DNA of 34,109 nucleotides, taken from IMG/VR virus record IMGVR_UViG_2913167280_000005, positions 1 to 34,109 of that record; one strand, given 5' to 3'. Below the pieces are notes generated by a model. That model saw only the letters and a list, made by a program, of their open reading frames with translations. It searched no databases and had not been told where the DNA came from. Source of the DNA: a virus. Taxonomy: Duplodnaviria; Heunggongvirae; Uroviricota; Caudoviricetes. Shown piece after piece: positions 1 through 34,109 of this stretch; position 1 is the stretch's first letter; each line of letters begins with the position of its first letter. Both the position numbers and the translations under genes were made by a program.

Positions 1-285
1 ATGGGCACACCACGATTTACCCCAGAGTTTAAGGAGGAAGCTGTCCGTCAGGTTACTGAACGGGGCTATTCCGTTGCCGATGTTTCTGAACGCCTCGGCG
101 TATCGGCTCACAGCCTTTATAAGTGGGTCCGGTCAGTCAGACCGGATAACAGCGAGCATCAGGCGCAGGATTTACTGGATGCGCGGACGGAGATTCTCAG
201 GCTTAAAGCGCAGCTTAAACGTACTGAGGAAGAACGGGATATTCTGAAAAAGGCAGCGCGGTACTTTGCAAGGGAGCCCGACTGA
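1..285 (+). CDS. IS3-family transposase OrfA (HTH DNA-binding part)
   Basis: 94-aa ORF starting at window position 1; motif FTPEFKEEAVRQV and a leucine-zipper-like C-terminus as in IS3-family OrfA (family knowledge). The true start may be at or upstream of position 1. Confidence 0.85.
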   Translation: MGTPRFTPEFKEEAVRQVTERGYSVADVSERLGVSAHSLYKWVRSVRPDNSEHQAQDLLDARTEILRLKAQLKRTEEERDILKKAARYFAREPD

Positions 286-332
286 AGTACCGCTTCATCA
301 ACGATCACCGTGAAATCTGGTCGATCGTAACA

Positions 333-1136
333 ATGTGTCGGGTTCTGAAGGTCGCCCGTGCGGGATTTTACGTCTGGCTTCATCGCCCTGTTTCTGCCGG
401 AGAAAAGGATAATCAGCGGTTGCTGGAGCTCATCCGCGATGCTTATGCACTGAGCGGCGGAGTCTACGGTTATCGCAGGGTTCACGGCGATCTTCGTGAA
501 ATCGGTGAAGTATGCAGCAGAAACCGAGTTGCCAGAATCATGAAGCGGAACAGGATACAGGCCGTACATGGCTATAAGGTCCCGCGTGGCGTCAGGGGAA
601 GGCCGTCACTGATAGCTCCTAATCGCGTACAGCGGGAATTTACGGTGGTAAAACCCAACCAGGTGTGGGTAACTGATATTACCTACATCCGCACCTGGCA
701 GGGTTGGCTGTATCTGGCGGTGGTTATCGATCTTTTTGCCCGTAATGTGGTGGGCTGGTCGATGAAACCAACGCTGTCGCGCGAGCTGGCACTGGATGCG
801 CTGCTGATGGCAGTCTGGCGGCGTAAGCCTGCAGAAAACGTCATAGTGCACAGCGATCAGGGCAGTCAGTATGGCAGTGATGACTGGCAGCGGTTCTGCA
901 GGGCCAACAATCTGGCGCCGAGCATGAGCCGTCGTGGCAACTGCTGGGATAATGCGGTGGCAGAATCGTTCTTCAGTTCACTGAAAAAAGAGCGCATCAG
1001 AAAGCGGATATATAAAACCCGGGACATGGCCCGGGCGGATATCTTCGATTACATTGAAGTGTTCTACAACCGGACCCGACGCCACAGTCATCTGGGTGGC
1101 GTCAGCCCGGAGGCCTTCGAAAAGGCCTCACCGTGA
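333..1136 (+). CDS. IS3-family transposase OrfB (DDE catalytic domain), likely made as an OrfAB fusion by -1 frameshift near 247-252
   Basis: 267-aa ORF with rve-type integrase-core motifs (VWVTDITYI, LYLAVVIDLFARNVVGW, GNCWDNAVAESFF); the frame is open upstream to the slippery site. Confidence 0.85.
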   Translation: MCRVLKVARAGFYVWLHRPVSAGEKDNQRLLELIRDAYALSGGVYGYRRVHGDLREIGEVCSRNRVARIMKRNRIQAVHGYKVPRGVRGRPSLIAPNRVQREFTVVKPNQVWVTDITYIRTWQGWLYLAVVIDLFARNVVGWSMKPTLSRELALDALLMAVWRRKPAENVIVHSDQGSQYGSDDWQRFCRANNLAPSMSRRGNCWDNAVAESFFSSLKKERIRKRIYKTRDMARADIFDYIEVFYNRTRRHSHLGGVSPEAFEKASP

Positions 1137-1330
1137 GGACAGAAACTGTCTACCGGAATGTGGTCACTCCATACCTTGATCATCAAAAGCTGGTATTTTA
1201 TTAGCTCGTTCAGCAGAAGACGGTAACTGATTAATTTGCTCAGGAACCCGTAATGTACGACCTAAGTTAGTGCTGGCAGTAGAGTCAACATAGTTCTTTG
1301 TGGCTGCATCCTGCGGCTGAGATGGGTCTT

Positions 1331-1765
1331 TTAAATTACGGATGTAATTATTAGTGCATCATAATAATTTGAGATAAAGGAAGGCTTACGAAGGGCTAGC
1401 CGAAGGAAACCGAAGCATTGCTGTATCAGCATTGTCAACTTATCGAAAGCATCCTCGTGAACCTCGGCGAAAAACTTCCCCTGATTACGGAGATCAATCT
1501 CCTGGGTAACCGGCAGGTCGCGAGAGATCGAAATCTGCCAGGCAGTAGTGAGTGGCGTAGCCAGAACTACATTGCCGCCGGAATATGACCCGGCACCTTG
1601 CACTGTGTAATCAGTGTCAAGAATCAGCGTGGTTAGGTTCTCGTCAAGATCCACAACCTGTACAACCAGGTCGGCTTTCTGGAAGATTCGGAAGGTGTAT
1701 GGGAATGAAGTCGTGACTCCGTTCCCGTTATATTCATTGTGGTCGACTTCGGTAGAGACCGTCAT
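1331..1765 (-). pseudogene. tail fibre/tailspike gene, N-terminal particle-binding fragment only (truncated)
   Basis: Starts MTVSTEVDHNEYNGNGVTTSFPYTFRIF, recalled as the conserved N-terminus of enterobacterial phage tail fibre/tailspike proteins; ATG at 1765 with GGAGA 7 nt upstream (track ORF begins at an upstream GTG at 1804). Only 144 codons, with no distal receptor-binding or catalytic domain, and it ends about 200 bp from the IS. Confidence 0.55.
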
Positions 1766-1865
1766 GTCTTTTCTCCAGATGTTCAGCGCCCGGCGCGCAT
1801 ACACATCTCCATTCTATTACCCATAAATCCTTATATGAATCGAATGAATAACAATCAGTTGTTTT

Positions 1866-1882
1866 ATTACCCTTTGGGTAAT
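1866..1882. promoter_or_regulatory. operator-like dyad ATTACCCTTTGGGTAAT (site G)
   Basis: Perfect 17-bp dyad read directly; lies in the intergenic region between the tail fibre start and the plus-strand 86-aa ORF. Confidence 0.35.
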
Positions 1883-1958
1883 TTGCACAACGTGCTGGAT
1901 AGGCTGCGAAACTTCTGATATATGTATATATATACAGTGCTCGCATGGAGAACACGAG

Positions 1959-5205: not shown

Positions 5206-7142
5206 TATGGATTCCTCAGGAAGCACGCCGCCGCAACGGAGTAAACTTTCGATTTTGCTTTTGCAGTCTGGATCTGCTCGTCAAAGTCAGCCAGAACATC
5301 GGATAACTTCATCTGCTGCCCGGTGTCAGGATGCGTTACGGTCAGATCAGGATTAGCTGTCGCCATGTCGCGCGCTGCCATCAATTCATAGTTGTTGTCA
5401 GAAATGGCCTGTCCACTGTCCGGATCAACGCTTACCTGTCCGGCATCTTCATCAACACGAGAAAATGCGCTTTCGCTGCGTGGAGCCTGCGCCTCCATGA
5501 CGGCATCACGCGGCGTTTCATAGTGAACGCCATTCTCCTGGAAAACCTGCTCCATTGCATGGTACTGATCGTTGGCTGACTCCAGCATGCCAGGACGCGC
5601 CGGGCCATCCAGCCCACGCGCCTGCATAACGATGTTAACCGGCTGGCCTTCTGACAACTGACGGGCTGCCTCATCCATGGCGGCCACATGGCTGTTAATA
5701 CTCTCGTTTGTACCATGCAGTACTGGTGCAGATTCGATGTCGTAATACAACCCCTCGTTCAGCGTGTGTGCCGCGTCAATGTCGCTGGGTTTGATTGGTG
5801 TTTCCGGAACCAGGCCGCGCATACTCTCAGGAATGATCCCCTGTTCCATACGTGATAAGTCGGCTTTTGCCTCGTAGAACTGGCCGCCTGGCTCATGCGG
5901 AGCCAGGGTGTCTCTGGCGTTTTGCAGACGGTCTCGCGCAACAGTCAGCTGATTGCTGATATCGATTAATTTCTCACGATTGGCTTCGTAGTAGCGCTTG
6001 TTGGCACCCGCTGAGCCGGTCGGCTGAGCATCACGAATTGCCTTTTCCTCGGCCTCCAGTCGCGCCACAGTTCGCTCACCATTGGCAATATCTGATTGCC
6101 ACACTTTCCTGTCACCGCGTGACATCAGTTTCCCGGCGCTGTCCTGTAGTTCTGCCATCCTGGAATCGAATGTTGCTGGTGGCTGCACTGCATCTGTAGG
6201 CGTTCCGATCTCAACAGTTGCTTGCTGCGTAGCATCGACAGGAGCAGCATCAGGTGCAACAATTCCATCAGGTGCGCTCTGCACCTCAGCCGCCGGGATA
6301 GGCGCTTCCACATCGACAGGGTTTGCTGTATCAGTGGCAACCGTGTCGGCACCATCAGCACCGCGCGCAGAAAGATGGTGAGCGCCACCGAACGCGCCGC
6401 CCAGTACCGCATCAATCATCACAGCCTGTCCATCCCATACGCGGTACTGCTTCGCCATATCGGAATAGCCTTTTTCTTCCAGCGTTTCTCCGACGGAAAA
6501 ACGGTTTATACCGCCGAATCCGACGTTGATCCCCACGCCTGAAGCGATACGCGTCAGCAGTGTTTTCCCAAGCGCGGCAGGAAGCGCCATACCCGCAGCG
6601 TTGAAGGTACTTTGCTGCGCTGCGAGATTACGCGCCGTGGACTCATCCACTCCCTTAGCTCTGAAATCCTGATAAGACTGCTCATAAGTAGAGCCGAATG
6701 CCGTTGACGCACCAATAACCGGGCCGCCAGCGATCGTTGCACCAATTGCAGGAACGAACTGGCCCAGACCATTTAACACTTCGGCGGCAGTTCCCTGGCT
6801 TGCCGGGTCTGGTTTGACGTATGCACGCGCACTCTTCAGCGAGTCACTCAGGCTGTCGTAGCTTTCATTGAGCTGCTTGTCAGCATCAGGGAACATCACG
6901 CGGAACATATTCACCGTCGGGGCTACAGCATCAGCCAGAGCAGGATCGCTGATCAGCCGCTTACTGAATCCCACAGCCGACTGCGCCAGCCCCGTAGCGC
7001 CCTCCGCAATGCCGCGCGGCAATGCAGACGCAGATCCCTGAAAGAATGTCGGGTCGTAGTCTTCTGGCCTGGCTGGGTTGGCCTGTGTCTTGTCATCAGT
7101 CCATGCCTGGCCTTCTGGTGCCAGCGAAAATACATCTGCCAT
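5205..7142 (-). CDS. internal virion/ejection protein (645 aa, Ala/Gly-rich segments)
   Basis: ATG at 7142 overlapping the upstream stop; composition and position typical of podovirus core proteins. Confidence 0.6.
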   Translation of the reverse strand: MADVFSLAPEGQAWTDDKTQANPARPEDYDPTFFQGSASALPRGIAEGATGLAQSAVGFSKRLISDPALADAVAPTVNMFRVMFPDADKQLNESYDSLSDSLKSARAYVKPDPASQGTAAEVLNGLGQFVPAIGATIAGGPVIGASTAFGSTYEQSYQDFRAKGVDESTARNLAAQQSTFNAAGMALPAALGKTLLTRIASGVGINVGFGGINRFSVGETLEEKGYSDMAKQYRVWDGQAVMIDAVLGGAFGGAHHLSARGADGADTVATDTANPVDVEAPIPAAEVQSAPDGIVAPDAAPVDATQQATVEIGTPTDAVQPPATFDSRMAELQDSAGKLMSRGDRKVWQSDIANGERTVARLEAEEKAIRDAQPTGSAGANKRYYEANREKLIDISNQLTVARDRLQNARDTLAPHEPGGQFYEAKADLSRMEQGIIPESMRGLVPETPIKPSDIDAAHTLNEGLYYDIESAPVLHGTNESINSHVAAMDEAARQLSEGQPVNIVMQARGLDGPARPGMLESANDQYHAMEQVFQENGVHYETPRDAVMEAQAPRSESAFSRVDEDAGQVSVDPDSGQAISDNNYELMAARDMATANPDLTVTHPDTGQQMKLSDVLADFDEQIQTAKAKSKVYSVAAACFLRNP

Positions 7143-8122
7143 TATTCGACCCTCACCACGATAGCCTGCCCTGTTTTCGGATCGGTTGCCCAGCGCCCAC
7201 TGCCGCTAACCATCCTGTACTGTCCGTTACCGATATTCACCGGCGTGAAGTTGCTGGCGGCGTTTTCGTTCAGCCCGGCATCTTTAAGCGCCTGCTGCGC
7301 TGATACGGTATAGCGGTCCTTGAAGGTGCTTTTGTCCATGCCAAACGGCATTACCACATCGCCACCATTGAATCCCTTATAAATACCACCAGTTGCCATC
7401 TGCGCAGCTTTGGAAACCACATCTGAATTCGCCGCGTCTGTGCGTGCCAGGCCGCTGTCACCTGACTGATATGCAATACCAGCATACGCAGCCTTAAACA
7501 GGCTATAGCTCATCTGGCGAGCCTGAGCGTTATAGGAAAACGAGTTGCCGACCTCATCATCGAAAGCGCGCTTGAGCTTGTCATCGCTCGGCAGTTGGAC
7601 GGGCTGAATGCCGGAGTCCTTCATCGCCTTCGTCGGATTCAGCAACTGATCCCCGGCCAGAATAGTTTTTGAAACGTCGTACTTGTTCATAGTCGGCTTG
7701 TAGCCAATGAACTGATCGTACGAAATAACCGGGTTCTTGTTGTCGTACTGGTTGTCAGGCGTACCAAGCAGCAGCGCGGAATAGGCCGTCGCCGCATTGT
7801 TCGGAGCAATAGCCCCGGCTACCTGCCGCATTGCCGCCGGTGGCAGTGATTGCCCCATGCTCTGCAACAGGTTAATGGTCTGATTAACGTTCTGCGTGCC
7901 GCGAACCTGCTGCGCCAGTGTAGCCGCCTCTTCGCTTGAAAGGATTGGCGCAGTGATACCGAGTTGCTTAAGCCCTTCCTGCGCAGAGAAACGGCTGGAA
8001 ACTTCTTTCGTGATGTCCTGCGGGTTGTTGGTGCTGAGCGGGTGATACGCGCCAATATCGACTGCCGCGTTGAACGGGTTATTCTGGCGATCGCTGATAA
8101 CCTTTGTAGCAGCCGTTTTAAC
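7142..8122 (-). pseudogene. open reading frame continuing the 8123-9682 gene past an in-frame TAG; no independent start signal
   Basis: Same reading frame as the 519-codon ORF. The 85 codons between the TAG (8123-8125) and the first start codon (TTG 7867, ATG 7858) contain no stop and no ATG/GTG/TTG, and there is no Shine-Dalgarno before 7858. The translation looks protein-like (VKTAATKVISDRQNNPFNAAVDIGAYHPLSTNNPQDITKEVSS...). Confidence 0.45.
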
Positions 8123-9682
8123 CTAGTCGAATAACTGAGCGCGCGACGCATACCCCTCGCCAGTTTCGCCAGTGTCAGGTCGCAGTTGATTCACATAGGC
8201 AGTGATGCTGCTAGTCGGCATATTGCGGAATGAGCCAATGTACTGACCGGCAACCTGAGTATTCTTGAATTCGGTATAACGGAGATTTCCTTCACGTACA
8301 CCATAAGCCGCCATGAATGCCGCTTCATCAGGTGGGTTGGGGAACTCAACGCCGCGCATGTATGCGGCGGTGGCATCGCGTACCTGACCATCAATAGTGG
8401 TTTTGTACTGCGCTTGCTGCTGCTTACGCATCTGGTCAGCCTGGCGCATAAACGTTGCCTGAGCTTCTGGTGAGGCAGCGTCAAACGCCGCATTCCCGGT
8501 GTAACGCTTCCCGACCGTCGGCAACTCTGACAGGCCGAGCGCAGCGCTAACTCCGCTGCCGATCTGCTCTTTGGTGTACGGCTGATCCCCGTTCTCATGC
8601 TTGATGATTGCCGAGCACAGCGCACTCAGTGTGTCAGGGTTTGATGCGTCAATCTGCTGATCGGGATGAACACCAAGTTGAGCACAGACGGCTTTGACAT
8701 AAGCAGACGTATCGTTGTTGTCACCAGGCGGTGCCCAGCGGTTAATGATGTCGTTTACCGTATCAATGCCCTGACGCTGGTATGAAAGTAGATTGCGACC
8801 CAGCGCACGAATGCCATGCTCTGGCGTTTCGAATTTGGCAAAGCGGCCGTCATCACCATTCTGGCCTACCCACGGATTAGACTTGCTGTATTCGAGATTA
8901 CCGGGGTTGTTATTTCGGATGCCGCGCGCACCTTCCGCGCCGGAAACATCTGGAGTGCTGGCAACGGCCCGGCGTGAACCAACAACCGTGTCACTAAGCT
9001 CCCCATTCTTCTCGATGAATTCCATGGAGTTATTAGCTGACCATTGCGACAGCGCGTTATCGGCCACCTTCTCTTTGAACTCATTTTTTTTGGCGGTGAT
9101 TTGCTCAGCACTCCAGCCATGCGCCGCACAGTAATCATCAATCTGCTGGAATGTCTGCGAGTTAGCATTAACGTACGCGGCATTATTGCCGTACATCGAT
9201 GCGGCAGTTTTCCCGTTATTCAGCAAAGTGGCCTGGAACTGGCCTTCTTCGTAGGCATTGAGTTGCCCGACTTCATGCCGCCCGGCCTGTGCAGTGAACT
9301 GTATGCGCTGATTCTGAGCTTGCTGGAGGAATCCAGCCCGTGCAGACTCCGGCAGCGTTAGTGCCAGTTCCTGCGCTTTCATGTCGAATTGCTGGGTGTA
9401 CTCCTGGCCTTTGCCAAGAGCATTTTTTCCCTGAAGATTAAGCAGACCCGTATCCGGGTTTGTCATCAGATCACTGGCTGTCTGGCTCAGTTGCAGCGAT
9501 GCATCCTGAGACATGGCAACGTCGGCGCGCAGCTTGGCCTGACCGAGAATGTTCACATACTGATCGGCAACATTCGCCAGGCCACCGCCGAACACATCCG
9601 GGGATGCCTGCACATTGAAACCGCCAGTTGATACACCGCGGCTCTCAACCTGACGACCAGTTGTAGTTGGAACTACTGGCAT
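8123..9682 (-). CDS. internal virion protein, N-terminal part (519 aa), terminated by an in-frame TAG
   Basis: ATG at 9682 with strong AAGGAGGA upstream. Contains a conserved-looking block GIRNNNPGNLEYSK...RWAPPGDNN that I cannot assign to a family. Confidence 0.6.
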   Translation of the reverse strand: MPVVPTTTGRQVESRGVSTGGFNVQASPDVFGGGLANVADQYVNILGQAKLRADVAMSQDASLQLSQTASDLMTNPDTGLLNLQGKNALGKGQEYTQQFDMKAQELALTLPESARAGFLQQAQNQRIQFTAQAGRHEVGQLNAYEEGQFQATLLNNGKTAASMYGNNAAYVNANSQTFQQIDDYCAAHGWSAEQITAKKNEFKEKVADNALSQWSANNSMEFIEKNGELSDTVVGSRRAVASTPDVSGAEGARGIRNNNPGNLEYSKSNPWVGQNGDDGRFAKFETPEHGIRALGRNLLSYQRQGIDTVNDIINRWAPPGDNNDTSAYVKAVCAQLGVHPDQQIDASNPDTLSALCSAIIKHENGDQPYTKEQIGSGVSAALGLSELPTVGKRYTGNAAFDAASPEAQATFMRQADQMRKQQQAQYKTTIDGQVRDATAAYMRGVEFPNPPDEAAFMAAYGVREGNLRYTEFKNTQVAGQYIGSFRNMPTSSITAYVNQLRPDTGETGEGYASRAQLFD

Positions 9683-23081: not shown

Positions 23082-23420
23082 TCACACCTCCAGTTTTACG
23101 TTATGCCAACCCATTGTAACCCAGCACGACGAATCACCATCGAACGGACACAACTCAACCGGCAGCATATCGCCGCATTTCCCGCAGCGGTTCGCGCCGA
23201 TTGATTTGATACGACCACGAACGCGAGCATCATCCTGGCGGATCAGCATCGCGATGTATTCGCTCATCTCGTACGGCGCGCGCCCAGGGCGACGGGCGGC
23301 GCAATTTCGCGCCAGCATATCCACTTCCTGTTCGTCGAGATACAGTTCCAGTTTGCGTTCACCGGCGGCGGTTTGCCGGGCGCGCTGCGCTGCTTTGCGC
23401 TCTGCTGCTGATTTAGTCAT
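23082..23420 (-). CDS. basic protein with C-terminal zinc ribbon (112 aa); candidate late-gene regulator or antiterminator by position
   Basis: C-terminal CGKCG...C...C motif and Arg-rich N-terminus; last sizeable gene before the terminator and late operon. The functional call is positional inference only. Confidence 0.55.
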   Translation of the reverse strand: MTKSAAERKAAQRARQTAAGERKLELYLDEQEVDMLARNCAARRPGRAPYEMSEYIAMLIRQDDARVRGRIKSIGANRCGKCGDMLPVELCPFDGDSSCWVTMGWHNVKLEV

Positions 23421-23820
23421 TGCTCTTCCCCTGCTGCGGTGCTGATGGCAGTGCGCAAGCTTCTACAGCAGATTCATGAATCTGCTTGATGGTGTCCCAC
23501 CCAATAGTAATTTCACCATCCCAGCCGCCTTCCTCGTTGCAGTCCTCACAACCTACACCGCCGCACGACTGGCAGAGGATACGATGTGTAACCTGGAACT
23601 CTCCGGATAAGGCACCCTTAGCGCCATTTTCAGCGGTGAGCTTTTTAGGCATAACACAGTAACCTTCCAACTGCGCGTGTGCATCAATAACCGCCAAAAT
23701 GAATTTAGACATGACGGCCAGCTCTTCATAATTAGCGCCGGTAAATCCACCCAGCCCATCAGTCCAGTCTTCAAGAAGCTCGCGGCGCGGTAGTTGCTGT
23801 TTCAATTCGTCAATAGTCAT
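23413..23820 (-). CDS. hypothetical protein with CxxC-GxG-CxxC zinc-finger motif (135 aa)
   Basis: CQSCGGVGCEDC motif; coupled ORF. Confidence 0.55.
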   Translation of the reverse strand: MTIDELKQQLPRRELLEDWTDGLGGFTGANYEELAVMSKFILAVIDAHAQLEGYCVMPKKLTAENGAKGALSGEFQVTHRILCQSCGGVGCEDCNEEGGWDGEITIGWDTIKQIHESAVEACALPSAPQQGKSND

Positions 23821-24299
23821 TCTGTAGGCTCCTTTCCTGCGTAGCCTACTTGTTCGGAATTACCGGACAACTGCGGGGCGGAAACATTGGCAAACGCAGC
23901 ACGCAGACCAGTTTTGATGTCCTCAAACTCATCTTCCATCGCTTCTGCGCTCACCTCTCCATCTGTTAGAGCACGGATGAATGCCAGCGCCATCTCGTCG
24001 TTTATCTCGATGGGTGCCGCTTTTCGGTATTCCTGAAGCTCTGCTCGGTCGTTGCTGATGAATGCAGGTGGAAGGCCCAGCGGTGGTTTCCATTGCTCGC
24101 CACCACACCAGGTGAAACCATGGCGCTCGAGCGTTTCGACAGCAGCGTTATACTTAGGCTCCTGCTCCATTCCGGCCAGCGCCAACTGTAGTGATTCCAG
24201 TGTCATCTGATGTTCCATATCAACGCCAAAGGTTTCTTCATCACGGCGCTTCATGTGTGCGATTTTCTGCTGTAACCATTCTTTGGTGATAGTGGTCAT
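23817..24299 (-). CDS. hypothetical protein (160 aa)
   Basis: Coupled ORF in the early-right operon. Confidence 0.55.
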   Translation of the reverse strand: MTTITKEWLQQKIAHMKRRDEETFGVDMEHQMTLESLQLALAGMEQEPKYNAAVETLERHGFTWCGGEQWKPPLGLPPAFISNDRAELQEYRKAAPIEINDEMALAFIRALTDGEVSAEAMEDEFEDIKTGLRAAFANVSAPQLSGNSEQVGYAGKEPTE

Positions 24300-24302
24300 G
24301 GC

Positions 24303-24491
24303 CTAACCCCTAACTTCAATATTGACATTAATGTTAATTACGCCGACATCGACGCTCATGTCGGTTGAGTCAGCAGTAATCATGTATTCAGCAGTAACCA
24401 TTGCCAGACGCTTTAGGGATTCCTCCATGTCGTTGCCTGTTAATTCATTCACAAGCGCAACCACTGGCTGCATATGCTCTCCCATTTTCAT
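24303..24491 (-). CDS. small hypothetical protein (about 62 aa)
   Basis: ATG at 24491 overlaps the HNH gene stop (ATGA). Confidence 0.45.
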   Translation of the reverse strand: MKMGEHMQPVVALVNELTGNDMEESLKRLAMVTAEYMITADSTDMSVDVGVININVNIEVRG

Positions 24492-25015
24492 CACTCACCT
24501 CCCTGATATTGCTCAAACCAGAAAACCACAGGCTTTTCGATAACCTCCACAATGCCGAACCGCTCAGCGGTACGGAAGTTCACACTGTATGCTCTGGCTC
24601 GCTCGGCCTGCTTAGAGATTTCTTTCCGCATCATTTCCACACTGAATGCAGCCTTGAACAGATTGCACGGCGCGCAGGATGGAAACAGATTATCGATGGC
24701 GTGCAGCTCCGGATGCATTACCTTACCAGTGCTGCGCGCGACGACGGACGAGCCGCTACCGGCCGGAGCCCGAACGAACTCAAAATCCCGACGAACCGGT
24801 TCAACGTGATCGGCGTGCCAGCCTTTTTCTGGCAACTTACAACCGCAATAAGCGCAGCGACCACCAAATTTCATACGCAATTCAGCGCGCTGCGCTTTGG
24901 TGATTTTGTTCTTCGGTTTTGAATAACGATCATCAGGCAGACCCACCCTCGGAAGAATGGTGGTTTGCTCCGGCAGTTCTATCATCATCCCTTTACGATT
25001 CGCGACCTGAGACAT
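24491..25015 (-). CDS. HNH endonuclease
   Basis: CAYCG...WHADHVEP...N...CAPCN motif block; ATG at 25015 (track start is a GTG at 25018). Confidence 0.8.
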   Translation of the reverse strand: MSQVANRKGMMIELPEQTTILPRVGLPDDRYSKPKNKITKAQRAELRMKFGGRCAYCGCKLPEKGWHADHVEPVRRDFEFVRAPAGSGSSVVARSTGKVMHPELHAIDNLFPSCAPCNLFKAAFSVEMMRKEISKQAERARAYSVNFRTAERFGIVEVIEKPVVFWFEQYQGGE

Positions 25016-25359
25016 CACTCACCTCCCTGAATCTGTAGGGTGATGCCAGCAGCGGAACAGGCATCCTGAATATCAGGAAGGTTCACTACCAGCGGGCAAT
25101 CAATATCGCCGTCAGGGTAAAACGGCTCTGGAAGTACGATTACTTGCTGCTCTGCGGAATCGGCGCGCTGCTCAATAAGAGACTTCAGCCCCGCATTCTC
25201 CGCCGCCAGCGCATCGCGTTCAGCACATGCAGTCCGGGTTGCAACCAGCGAACAATCAAACCGAGTAGCCAGTTCATTCAGCAGTTGAGCCGCCTTCTCG
25301 TTCTCGTACTTCGCCACAACCCGAGCAGTTTCAATCAGTTGTTCATTGTTCCATTCCAT
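25015..25359 (-). CDS. hypothetical protein (about 114 aa)
   Basis: ATG at 25359 with GGGGGTAAAG upstream (track start is a TTG at 25371). Confidence 0.5.
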   Translation of the reverse strand: MEWNNEQLIETARVVAKYENEKAAQLLNELATRFDCSLVATRTACAERDALAAENAGLKSLIEQRADSAEQQVIVLPEPFYPDGDIDCPLVVNLPDIQDACSAAGITLQIQGGE

Positions 25360-25420
25360 CTTTACCCCCAATTACCCGTATAAGTTATTGATTACGCTGA
25401 TAACAAAAAGGATCGTCGTT

Positions 25421-25765
25421 TCAGAACTCTTCGACCTTCCAGCCTCCACCCGCTTTCTTTGGCTTCGGCGTTACTGCGATGATGCGGAACGGATACTGAT
25501 CGGCTGCCACTTTGGTTTTCACCCTGGCATCATCAGTCCACATGCCCTTCGCCTCGTGCAGTTCCATCTCACCGCTGGCGAGCATCACTGCAAAGTCAGG
25601 CGTGTAGAACGTGTTATCCGCCAGCCGCAGCTTGATGCCTTCAAACCGGTACCAGGCAACTTCCCCTGCACGCTTACGCAGTTCCAACATCTGGCAGTAG
25701 GCCGCCTCGGTCTGGTTCATCTGCCCGGTCTTCAGTCGGCCAAGCGCCTGTAGTCTCTTCTGCAT
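25421..25765 (-). CDS. small PD-(D/E)xK-type nuclease-like protein (about 114 aa)
   Basis: YTPDF...ELHEAKG resembles a D...ExK catalytic motif; ATG at 25765 with AAGAGG upstream (track start is a GTG at 25795). Confidence 0.5.
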   Translation of the reverse strand: MQKRLQALGRLKTGQMNQTEAAYCQMLELRKRAGEVAWYRFEGIKLRLADNTFYTPDFAVMLASGEMELHEAKGMWTDDARVKTKVAADQYPFRIIAVTPKPKKAGGGWKVEEF

Positions 25766-25831
25766 CGCCTTACCTCTTGGGTAATTAAAATCCACTTACG
25801 GATTAATATCAATAGTTATGCGCATTTATTT

Positions 25832-33113: not shown

Positions 33114-33750
33114 GTACACGCTAATCTACGCAGATCCGCCTTGGGTTTACCGTGACAAAGCTGCCGACGGAAGCCGCGGGGCCGGGTTCAAATACCCGGT
33201 AATGAACGTCATGGATATATGCCGCCTGCCAGTATGGGATCTGGCCGCCGACGATTGCCTTCTGGCGATGTGGTGGGTGCCGACTCAACCGGTCGAAGCG
33301 CTGAAGGTTGTCGAGGCATGGGGATTCAGGCTGATGACCATGAAGGGCTTCACCTGGCACAAAACGAATAAGCACAAAGGCAACAGCGCGATAGGAATGG
33401 GCCACATGACCCGGGCGAACAGCGAAGACTGTCTGTTTGCCGTTCGAGGAAAACTACCGGCGCGCATGGATGCCTCGATATGCCAGCACATCACGGCACC
33501 GCGGATGGAGAACTCGCGCAAGCCGGATCTCATTCGCGAAAAACTGGTGCAGTTGCTTGGCGATGTACCAAGGATCGAGCTTTTCGCCCGCCAGTCGTCG
33601 CATGGCTTCGACGTATGGGGCAATCAGTGCGAAGGCCCGGCGGTGAAGTTGCAACCAGGATATGCGCTTGATATCGCTGGATTGACGCAGGCATTAAAAA
33701 ACACTCCGCTATCACCATCAGATAAGCAGGGCCAGGAGCGTGCAGCATGA
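33106..33750 (+). CDS. MT-A70-family DNA N6-adenine methyltransferase
   Basis: IYADPPW catalytic motif near the N-terminus; ATG at 33106 (an alternative ATG at 33094 is in frame; track start at 32926). Confidence 0.85.
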   Translation: MTKYTLIYADPPWVYRDKAADGSRGAGFKYPVMNVMDICRLPVWDLAADDCLLAMWWVPTQPVEALKVVEAWGFRLMTMKGFTWHKTNKHKGNSAIGMGHMTRANSEDCLFAVRGKLPARMDASICQHITAPRMENSRKPDLIREKLVQLLGDVPRIELFARQSSHGFDVWGNQCEGPAVKLQPGYALDIAGLTQALKNTPLSPSDKQGQERAA

Positions 33751-34109
33751 GTGGATCACTGGAAAAACTTGCTATTCAGCAATATGAATTAACGACTGAA
33801 ATTAAACGTTTGAAAAAACTTTCTGGAGAAATTATTGAAAAATGCCACCCAGAGGATATTGAATCAAACGATCCTGCTAAAGGTTATTTCAACCATATCC
33901 AGTGGGTAATTCAGCTTCATAAAGAGCAGGAGCCAGACTACCCATTTGGACCGGAAAGCTTTGGCGACATATTTAATGCTGAAGTTACCTGCCCTCATTG
34001 TCGTGAATGGTACAGAATACAGAGGAAAGAAATACTTCCTCTTAAACGCAAGCTTGGTTCAGTTAAAGGAGCAATCACCAAAGCCGGAAAACGACTTGCC
34101 ACAGCCTAA
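33747..34109 (+). CDS. hypothetical protein (120 aa) with Cys/His motifs, AT-rich gene
   Basis: ATGA overlap with the methyltransferase stop; CH..(n)..CPHC motifs; visibly lower GC than neighbouring genes; stop is at the window end. Confidence 0.5.
   Translation: MSGSLEKLAIQQYELTTEIKRLKKLSGEIIEKCHPEDIESNDPAKGYFNHIQWVIQLHKEQEPDYPFGPESFGDIFNAEVTCPHCREWYRIQRKEILPLKRKLGSVKGAITKAGKRLATA

What the first reader, a model, noticed from the sequence alone, without database searches (positions are those of the whole stretch)
1..1804. IS3-family element adjacent to a truncated tail-fibre gene; prophage probably defective
The tail fibre ORF keeps only about 144 codons of the conserved N-terminal anchoring domain and ends about 200 bp from the IS, with AT-rich non-coding DNA between. 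No lysis cassette or distal fibre domain is present in the window. The transposase ORF starts exactly at window position 1, so the left part of the IS and the true prophage/host junction lie outside the window. Together with the in-frame TAG at 8123-8125 this argues for a decaying prophage.
Basis: partly seen in the sequence, partly recalled or inferred. Interest (0 to 1): 0.4.

Follow-up and report, generated by a model that had tools for sequence, protein, structure and literature searches.

The report
Insertion sequence splits a prophage tailspike gene
A common jumping gene (an IS3-family insertion sequence) has landed in, and removed a piece of, the tailspike gene of an epsilon15-like prophage in an environmental Escherichia strain; this is an ordinary case of prophage decay, and the "missing" half of the gene and the lysis genes are simply beyond the edge of the window.

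Summary
Window 1-1171 is an ISEc24-like IS3-family element, 99.2% identical to E. coli copies and lacking only its first 59 bp. The 144-codon ORF (1765..1331, minus strand) is the start of an epsilon15-type tailspike gene.

The 159 bp between the ORF and the IS are not non-coding. They are tailspike codons about 139-198, thrown out of frame by a 1-nt deletion near 1353, and they run right up to the IS end at 1171/1172.

The gene is split, not truncated. The window comes from contig RHJM01000016 of GCA_004212315.1, which breaks inside the IS. Contig RHJM01000019 of the same assembly starts in the IS left end. It carries the distal 683 tailspike codons as one open frame, then an intact acyltransferase, holins, endolysin, Rz, an att core and host yfgI. 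Integrase and guaA lie just right of the window.

About 54 codons are missing at the IS junction: 87 of 87 homologues carry a conserved segment there that this gene lacks. IS excision would therefore not restore the gene.

With the real CAG->TAG change in the gp15 homologue, the prophage very probably cannot make infectious particles. It is otherwise complete and only recently damaged. Ordinary; low interest.

The parts
1..1171 (+). ISEc24-like IS3-family insertion sequence. The full element is 1230 bp; its first 59 bp, including the left inverted repeat TGGAGTGCCCCC..., lie outside the window.
   Evidence: 99.2% identity over 1-1171 to E. coli copies annotated 'IS3-like element ISEc24 family transposase, programmed frameshift'. 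The element is 1230 bp in the E. coli copies, and the left end is read in L006/L007.
1..285 (+). IS orfA (94 aa, HTH_Tnp_1)
247..252 (+). AAAAAG run in the orfA/orfB overlap, the likely -1 slippage site that would give the 378-aa OrfAB fusion
   Evidence: Read from the sequence. The fused product is called as 378 aa in L007. RefSeq marks the E. coli copies 'programmed frameshift'. The exact slip site is inferred.
333..1136 (+). IS orfB (267 aa from the first ATG; HTH_21 + rve DDE core + rve_2/rve_3)
1142..1171 (+). Right inverted repeat of the IS, ending ...GGTCACTCCA. It is an imperfect match to the left repeat: 7/7 terminal bases, and about 19 of the first 26.
   Evidence: (IR comparison)
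1172..1352 (-). Tailspike codons about 139-198, out of frame with the start of the gene. They abut the IS end directly, and the last codon is cut after its first base.
   Evidence: tblastn with epsilon15 gp20: residues 140-205 align to 1349..1173. DNA alignment. Translation.
1353..1354 (-). Site of the 1-nt deletion (CTT->CT, Leu138) that shifts the frame
   Evidence: The state is identical in L006, L007 and L008.
1331..1333 (-). Premature TAA stop created by the frameshift
1354..1765 (-). Tailspike codons 1-138, the conserved particle-binding N-terminal module. The true start is ATG 1765-1763, with GGAG at 1776-1773. The GTG at 1804 is not the start.
   Evidence: 80% identity to epsilon15 gp20 residues 1-138, starting at the same Met. 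PHROG phrog_1640 'tail protein', E=4e-130.
1766..1958 (.). Divergent intergenic region between the tailspike gene and the gp19 homologue (1959-2219, + strand). Epsilon15 has annotated IHF and repressor sites in the equivalent region. One promoter-like match on the minus strand at 1839-1811.
   Evidence: This is a consensus match only.
8123..8125 (-). In-frame TAG (codon 520 of 846) in the gp15 homologue 9682..7142. Epsilon15 has Gln at this position.
   Evidence: Identical in L006, L007, L008 and L009.

Best explanation
The region is the junction between an ISEc24-like IS3-family insertion sequence and the 5' part of the single tailspike gene of an epsilon15-like (Uetakevirus-type) prophage. 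The prophage is integrated at the 3' end of guaA in an Escherichia cryptic clade II strain.

The IS sits inside the tailspike gene, after the first base of codon 199. The proximal 198 codons are in the window. The distal 683 codons, the beta-helix receptor-binding part, lie on the other side of the IS, outside the window.

Three lesions inactivate the gene:
1. A 1-nt deletion at codon 138, which creates the 144-codon ORF.
2. The IS insertion itself.
3. Loss of about 54 codons exactly at the IS junction. This removes the end of the conserved N-terminal module and the start of the receptor-binding module.

The third lesion points either to an IS-mediated adjacent deletion or to recombination between two IS copies.

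Shown: the anatomy, the three lesions, and the presence of the rest of the prophage.
Inferred: the prophage may still excise, replicate and lyse the cell. Any particles would lack tailspikes, and would lack full-length gp15 because of the amber codon, so they would not be infectious.
For: - IS identity and ends.
- Tailspike homology in two frames up to base 1172.
- The repaired 198-aa N-terminus aligns over its full length, in one piece, to tailspikes of TL-2011b, SPN1S, epsilon15, phiV10 and others at 73-77%.
- The whole window is collinear with epsilon15, from terS to gp20 and through the early region.
- Source and context: the window is 100% identical to GCA_004212315.1 contig RHJM01000016 (L007), which starts 1 nt before the IS left end.
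- Contig RHJM01000019 of the same assembly (L013) starts 20 nt inside the IS left end. It continues with a 690-aa open frame (P0247), a 381-aa acyltransferase, holins, a GH19 endolysin, Rz, and host yfgI/yfgH/yfgG/pdeF.
- The Ion Torrent assembly of strain E2593 (L006) joins both sides across one IS.
- Deletion: P0126 and P0128, which have the same N-terminal module and a related receptor-binding module, have about 54 extra residues at the junction.
- 87 of 87 homologues with the RANK..AFD..G motif continue with N.I...P.SGSASDV..LA, which is absent here.
- The flanking triplets differ, CAC versus TAC.
- Integrase and guaA lie right of the window. An att core lies at the guaA 3' end and a near copy next to Rz, as published for Uetakevirus ZX5 (PMC9782041).
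Against: - No read or contig in hand physically spans the 1.23-kb IS. The two good contigs overlap by only 21 nt, 20 of them IS sequence. The Ion Torrent assembly used manual, repeat-based gap closure (PMC6639607). A structure with two IS copies and extra DNA between them is therefore not excluded.
- No intact close relative of this exact gene was found. The best N-terminal match is 79% and the best receptor-binding match is 81%. The size of the deletion therefore rests on more distant homologues.
- The target-duplication test is weak. One E. coli copy has TGA/TGA, but another site has TTC/CTT.
- Loss of infectivity is inferred, not tested.
Confidence: 0.9

Rival explanations
1. The tail-fibre gene is truncated after about 144 codons and is followed by non-coding DNA. 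The distal fibre domain, the lysis cassette and the prophage end were lost, for example by an IS-mediated deletion reaching into host DNA.
For: Inside the window there is no distal domain and no lysis gene. The flanks of the IS show no perfect target duplication.
Against: Tailspike homology continues in a second frame to the very end of the IS. The distal 683 codons, acyltransferase, holins, endolysin, Rz, an att core and the expected host neighbour yfgI all lie directly left of the IS, in two assemblies.
Confidence: 0.02
2. The 144-aa ORF is a complete, functional small adaptor or anchor protein rather than a gene fragment.
For: It has a good ribosome-binding site and the native start codon, and it contains most of the conserved N-terminal module, so it could be made.
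Against: All 25 PHROG families shown match it with profiles of 506-1084 positions, nearly all over their first ~200 positions. All phage homologues are long tailspikes. Its last 6 residues (ALIITSVI versus ALNNYIRN) are frameshift read-out. The next 60 codons of the normal gene follow in another frame.
Confidence: 0.02
3. The small lesions (the 1-nt deletion at about 1353 and the TAG at 8123) are sequencing or assembly errors, and the IS insertion is the only real damage.
For: One of the assemblies (PDII, strain E2593) is Ion Torrent and is full of false +1 homopolymer calls. It differs by 13 gaps and no substitutions over 8 kb, including false frameshifts in guaA, in the distal tailspike and in the acyltransferase.
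Against: Both lesions are identical in the window, in the Logan assembly of SRR8835200 and in the Ion Torrent assembly. The errors of that assembly are all insertions in runs of 4 or more bases. In contrast, the tailspike lesion is a loss within TT and the gp15 lesion is a C->T substitution.
Confidence: 0.06

Closest known systems
ISEc24 (IS3 family), as annotated in E. coli RefSeq genomes
   Same: 99.2% nucleotide identity over all 1171 bases present. The E. coli copies are 1230 bp, and the L007 start (59 bp) plus window 1-1171 give the same length here. Same orfA/orfB arrangement with a 378-aa fusion, same terminal repeats TGGAGTG...CACTCCA.
   Different: The host is Escherichia cryptic clade II rather than E. 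coli. The insertion is in a prophage tailspike gene. The flanking triplets are not identical (CAC/TAC).
Salmonella phage epsilon15 and relatives (genus Uetakevirus: phiV10, TL-2011b, SPN1S, vB_EcoP_ZX5)
   Same: Gene order is collinear from terS to the tailspike and through the early region, with 36-92% protein identity. The lysis cassette lies downstream of the tailspike. Integration is at the guaA 3' end with the same att core as ZX5. The tailspike N-terminal module is 73-77% identical.
   Different: The receptor-binding module is unrelated to that of epsilon15. An acyltransferase replaces the epsilon15 O-antigen polymerase and inhibitor genes. The capsid genes are only 36-43% identical. The tailspike is disrupted and gp15 carries an amber codon.
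Intact modular tailspikes P0126/P0128 (Enterobacter hormaechei 'phage tail fiber protein') and P0121
   Same: P0126 has the same N-terminal module and a related receptor-binding module, 43% identical over its full length. P0121 has the closest receptor-binding module (81%), on a P22-type head-binding N-terminus.
   Different: They are uninterrupted proteins of 823-936 aa. P0126 and P0128 keep the ~54 residues at the module junction that are missing here.
IS-damaged and point-mutated prophages of enterobacteria in general (for example the cryptic prophages of E. coli K-12 and the defective prophage pool of O157 Sakai; from general knowledge)
   Same: Inactivation of a structural gene by an IS plus small mutations, while the rest of the prophage stays in place.
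   Different: Here the decay is at an early stage. Only two genes are visibly hit, and both ends, the integrase and the lysis genes are intact.

Membership tests
IS3 family insertion sequence | Two consecutive, partly overlapping ORFs (orfA with an HTH domain, orfB in the -1 frame) that give an OrfAB fusion by programmed -1 frameshifting | tested here: met
   orfA is 1-285 and orfB is in the -1 frame, open up to 1136. An AAAAAG run lies in the overlap. The fused 378-aa product is called in L007. Frameshifting itself is not tested.
IS3 family insertion sequence | DDE transposase of the rve (retroviral integrase) type | tested here: met
   PF00665 rve E=1e-30, plus rve_2, rve_3 and HTH_21
IS3 family insertion sequence | Imperfect terminal inverted repeats ending 5'-TG...CA-3'; length about 1.2-1.5 kb | tested here: met
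   TGGAGTG... on the left (outside the window, read in L006/L007) and ...CACTCCA at 1171. The element is 1230 bp in E. coli copies.
IS3 family insertion sequence | Short (3-4 bp) direct target duplication flanking the element | tested here: not met
   CAC on the left versus TAC on the right. This fits a deletion next to the IS. The test is weak because one of two independent E. coli sites also lacks a perfect duplication.
Epsilon15-type (Uetakevirus) tailspike, gp20 | Conserved N-terminal module of about 200 aa that starts MTVSTEV... | tested here: met
   75-80% identity to epsilon15 gp20 residues 1-205 after repair of the frameshift. phrog_1640 E=4e-130.
Epsilon15-type (Uetakevirus) tailspike, gp20 | One uninterrupted polypeptide of about 750-1070 aa that joins the N-terminal module to a beta-helix receptor-binding module | tested here: not met
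   The gene is broken by a frameshift, a 1230-bp IS and loss of ~54 junction codons. The distal part is an open frame of 683 codons with a weak Beta_helix match.
Uetakevirus-type prophage | Gene order terS-terL-portal-...-gp17-gp18-gp19-tailspike-(conversion)-lysis-att-int, as in epsilon15 | tested here: met
Uetakevirus-type prophage | Integration at the 3' end of guaA with the core ATTGAGTGGGAATGATT | tested here: met
   The core, with 1 mismatch, lies at the guaA stop (L011 8340-8356). A copy with a 1-nt deletion lies next to Rz (L013 5262-5277)..
Uetakevirus-type prophage | Ability to produce infectious particles | not testable with these tools
   Predicted to be lost (tailspike and gp15 lesions). 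An induction experiment is needed.

The most novel reading that the evidence does not exclude
The 144-aa N-terminal fragment is still expressed from its native start and occupies the tailspike sites on the tail hub. Alternatively, the spike-less particles are armed in trans by a tailspike with the same conserved N-terminal module from another prophage or an infecting phage. In that case the IS-hit prophage would survive as a particle factory with a borrowed host range rather than as dead DNA. The only hint is that one short-read contig (L009) breaks inside the conserved module at window 1470, which might reflect a second copy in that genome.
Probability: 0.04. Interest if true: 0.4.

Novelty: new member of a known kind. 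Interest (0 to 1): 0.12.

Why it matters
It matters mainly as a correction. The apparent truncation of the prophage is a contig break at a repeated IS, and the 'non-coding spacer' is frameshifted coding sequence.

The case shows an early step of prophage domestication. The receptor-binding gene is hit first, while the integrase, att sites, lysis genes and almost all structural genes remain intact.

It also shows that frameshifts seen only in the Ion Torrent assembly of strain E2593 are artefacts and must not be counted as decay.

Nothing here would surprise a phage or IS specialist.

Tried and rejected
- A scan of genome contigs for the exact IS/tailspike junction (40-mer) found nothing. I did not use the second scan.
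- A megablast of 1172-2460 against 5426 complete E. coli genomes found no relative of the prophage. The host flank is only ~89.5% identical to E. coli, which led to the cryptic-clade host.
- I first counted a third frameshift, a T7 run in the distal tailspike of L006, and two frameshifts in the acyltransferase as further decay. I rejected this. L006/L010 differ from all other assemblies only by +1 calls in homopolymers, including in guaA. The window's own assembly has both genes open. The paper confirms Ion Torrent sequencing.
- A search for an exact attL/attR repeat gave only a chance 12-mer. The published ZX5 core located both sites.
- The target-duplication test on further E. coli copies was inconclusive. 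Four hits were the same insertion site.
- No suppressor tRNA is in the window that could read the gp15 amber codon.
- The promoter and terminator scan added nothing beyond chance level.
- Structure prediction was not used. Sequence homology settled the question.

Full report
WHAT IS IN THE SEQUENCE

Window 1-1171 is an insertion sequence. It has orfA (1-285, 94 aa) and orfB (ATG at 333, open to 1136) in the -1 frame. Pfam gives HTH_Tnp_1 for OrfA, and HTH_21, rve, rve_2 and rve_3 for OrfB. The DNA is 99.2% identical over 1-1171 to many E. coli copies. RefSeq annotates those as 'IS3-like element ISEc24 family transposase, programmed frameshift'.

The match stops at 1171, where the element ends ...GGTCACTCCA. 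In E. coli the element is 1230 bp and begins TGGAGTGCCCCC, 59 bp before the orfA ATG.

THE TAIL-FIBRE ORF

The ORF on the minus strand runs from ATG 1765 to TAA 1333-1331, 144 codons, with GGAG at 1776-1773. The GTG at 1804 listed by the ORF finder is not the start.

The ORF is the beginning of an epsilon15-type tailspike. epsilon15 gp20 residues 1-138 match 1765..1352 at 80%. Residues 140-205 match 1349..1173 at 67%, in a different frame.

The DNA alignment shows a single missing T (CTT->CT) at about 1353 and continuous homology right to base 1172. The 159 bp between the ORF stop and the IS are therefore frameshifted coding sequence, not AT-rich spacer. Their G+C is 44%, against 47.6% for the ORF.

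With the T restored, the 198-aa product aligns end to end, in one piece, with the tailspikes of TL-2011b, SPN1S, epsilon15, phiV10 and others at 73-77%.

THE PROPHAGE

tblastn with the epsilon15 proteins shows that the window is collinear with epsilon15, in reverse orientation. The matches are:
- tailspike start, gp19, gp18 and gp17 through gp3;
- terL and terS;
- gp49, replication genes and the repressor;
- recombination genes, xis and a methyltransferase.

In epsilon15 the conversion genes, holin, endolysin, Rz, attP and int follow the tailspike. In an integrated copy the lysis cassette therefore lies beyond the tailspike. That is exactly where the window stops.

The ORFs of the window without an epsilon15 match were searched against Pfam and PHROGs. 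None is a tail protein. No other tail-fibre gene is in the window.

WHERE THE WINDOW COMES FROM, AND WHAT LIES LEFT OF THE IS

Exact look-up of the gp19 homologue found four contigs.

- L007 (GCA_004212315.1, RHJM01000016.1) is 100% identical to the window. It starts one base before the IS left end. The window edge is therefore a contig break at a repeat.
- L006 (GCA_004745395.1, PDII01000024.1, Escherichia sp. E2593) is contiguous across the IS. To its left it shows more tailspike sequence, an acyltransferase, two holin-type genes, a GH19 endolysin, an Rz gene and host genes.
- The host flank is yfgI-yfgH-yfgG-pdeF, about 89.5% identical to E. coli.

To the right of the window, a 414-aa integrase overlaps the last ORF by 4 nt and is followed by guaA, guaB and xseA.

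The att core published for the Uetakevirus vB_EcoP_ZX5 is ATTGAGTGGGAATGATT, at the guaA 3' end (PMC9782041). It is present at the guaA stop with one mismatch. A copy lacking one G lies next to Rz. The whole prophage is about 40.6 kb including the IS.

A TRAP AVOIDED

In L006 the distal tailspike is broken by a T7 run, and the acyltransferase is split into three ORFs. At first sight this looks like more decay.

L006 and L010 differ from the window and from the Logan contigs only by +1 calls in homopolymer runs. These include one in guaA and one in the IS orfB. Against L013 there are 13 gaps and no substitutions in 8 kb. The PDII assemblies were made from Ion Torrent reads (PMC6639607).

The window's own assembly settles the point. 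Contig RHJM01000019.1 (L013) starts 20 nt inside the IS left end. It carries the distal tailspike as one 690-aa partial protein (P0247; 7 residues of IS read-through plus 683 tailspike residues). It also carries an intact 381-aa acyltransferase and an intact lysis cassette. The extra frameshifts are artefacts.

The 1-nt deletion at about 1353 and the TAG in gp15 are different in kind. One is a loss within TT and the other is a C->T substitution. Both are shared by all assemblies that cover them.

IS THE IS A SIMPLE INSERTION?

Removing the IS and one flanking triplet joins ...KIPAFDDQG to (T/A)SLSNSRQVVQDDTGLWWFYTG... in frame, which gives an 881-aa protein. The junction is nevertheless not native, for four reasons.

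- P0126 and P0128 have the same N-terminal module and a related receptor-binding module. They carry about 54 extra residues at this point.
- 87 of 87 homologues with the RANK..AFD..G motif continue with N.I...P.SGSASDV..LA. This gene lacks that segment.
- The start of the receptor-binding module (..DYE..EF.R...FA.GG..) is also missing. It is present even in P0121, which has a P22-type N-terminus.
- The triplets flanking the IS differ, CAC versus TAC. One E. coli copy has TGA/TGA, but another site has TTC/CTT, so this test alone is weak.

The best reading is an IS insertion accompanied or followed by loss of about 160 bp. This could be an adjacent deletion or recombination between two IS copies. 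Precise excision of the IS would not restore the gene.

THE TAG AT 8123-8125

The gp15 homologue (9682..7142, 846 codons) has one internal stop, at codon 520. epsilon15 has Gln there, and the sequence stays conserved and in frame on both sides. The window carries no tRNA gene. This is a second inactivating lesion, in an internal virion protein.

HOW IT MOST LIKELY WORKS

Shown:
- the only tailspike gene is broken in three ways;
- gp15 is truncated;
- everything else that could be checked has intact reading frames, including int, xis, the repressor, replication genes, terminase, portal, capsid and tail genes, holins, endolysin and Rz, and both att cores are present.

Inferred:
- the element can probably still be induced, excise and lyse;
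- the particles would be non-infectious;
- the small number of lesions means the damage is recent;
- the 144-aa fragment may be made, but no evidence points to a function. All matching PHROG profiles shown are 506-1084 positions long, and in nearly all of them the fragment aligns to the first ~200 positions.

COMPARISON AND NOVELTY

The IS is a known element. The prophage is a new but typical member of the epsilon15 group, with a shuffled receptor-binding module and an acyltransferase in place of the epsilon15 O-antigen polymerase genes. Inactivation of a prophage structural gene by an IS is commonplace.

CAVEAT

No sequence in hand physically spans the IS, so two IS copies with DNA between them cannot be excluded.

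Noticed in passing
window 7142-9682 (TAG at 8123-8125, minus strand): The gp15 homologue (an internal virion protein; lytic-transglycosylase-like in the epsilon15 annotation) has a single CAG->TAG nonsense codon at position 520 of 846. The sequence is otherwise conserved and in frame, and the codon is identical in four assemblies.
   Followed up: partly
L006 and L010 (GCA_004745395.1, PDII01000024.1): This Ion Torrent assembly has systematic +1 errors in homopolymer runs. They create false frameshifts in the IS orfB, the distal tailspike, the acyltransferase, a replication gene and guaA. Pseudogene counts from this assembly are unreliable.
   Followed up: yes
L013 2102-3247 (outside the window, left of the IS): A 381-aa Acyl_transf_3 protein, probably an O-antigen acetylase, sits between the tailspike and the lysis cassette. 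epsilon15 has its O-antigen polymerase and inhibitor genes there. This is a swapped serotype-conversion module.
   Followed up: no
L011 8340-8356 and L013 5262-5277: The two att cores are not identical. The copy at the guaA stop has one mismatch to the published 17-bp ZX5 core, and the copy next to Rz lacks one G. Whether this affects excision is unknown.
   Followed up: partly
P0121-P0125 compared with L013 1-2073: The receptor-binding module of this tailspike is found, at 56-81% identity, on three different N-terminal modules: epsilon15-type, P22 head-binding PF09008, and PF18668. This is a clear case of module shuffling among podovirus tailspikes.
   Followed up: partly
L009 (Logan SRR6148325), which ends at window 1470: This contig breaks inside the conserved N-terminal tailspike module, not at the IS. 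The break might reflect a second copy of the module elsewhere in that genome, or only read errors.
   Followed up: no
window 24491-25018 (minus strand): A 175-aa ORF with a strong PHROG match to HNH endonuclease / endonuclease VII (E=1e-56) lies in the early region, roughly where epsilon15 has its RuvC-type resolvase. Several neighbouring ORFs (23413-25795) have no epsilon15 counterpart.
   Followed up: no
window 33747-34109 and beyond: The window ends exactly at the stop of a 120-aa ORF with no family match. The integrase gene starts (on the other strand) 4 nt inside this ORF and lies wholly outside the window. Both window edges therefore follow gene boundaries, not prophage boundaries.
   Followed up: yes
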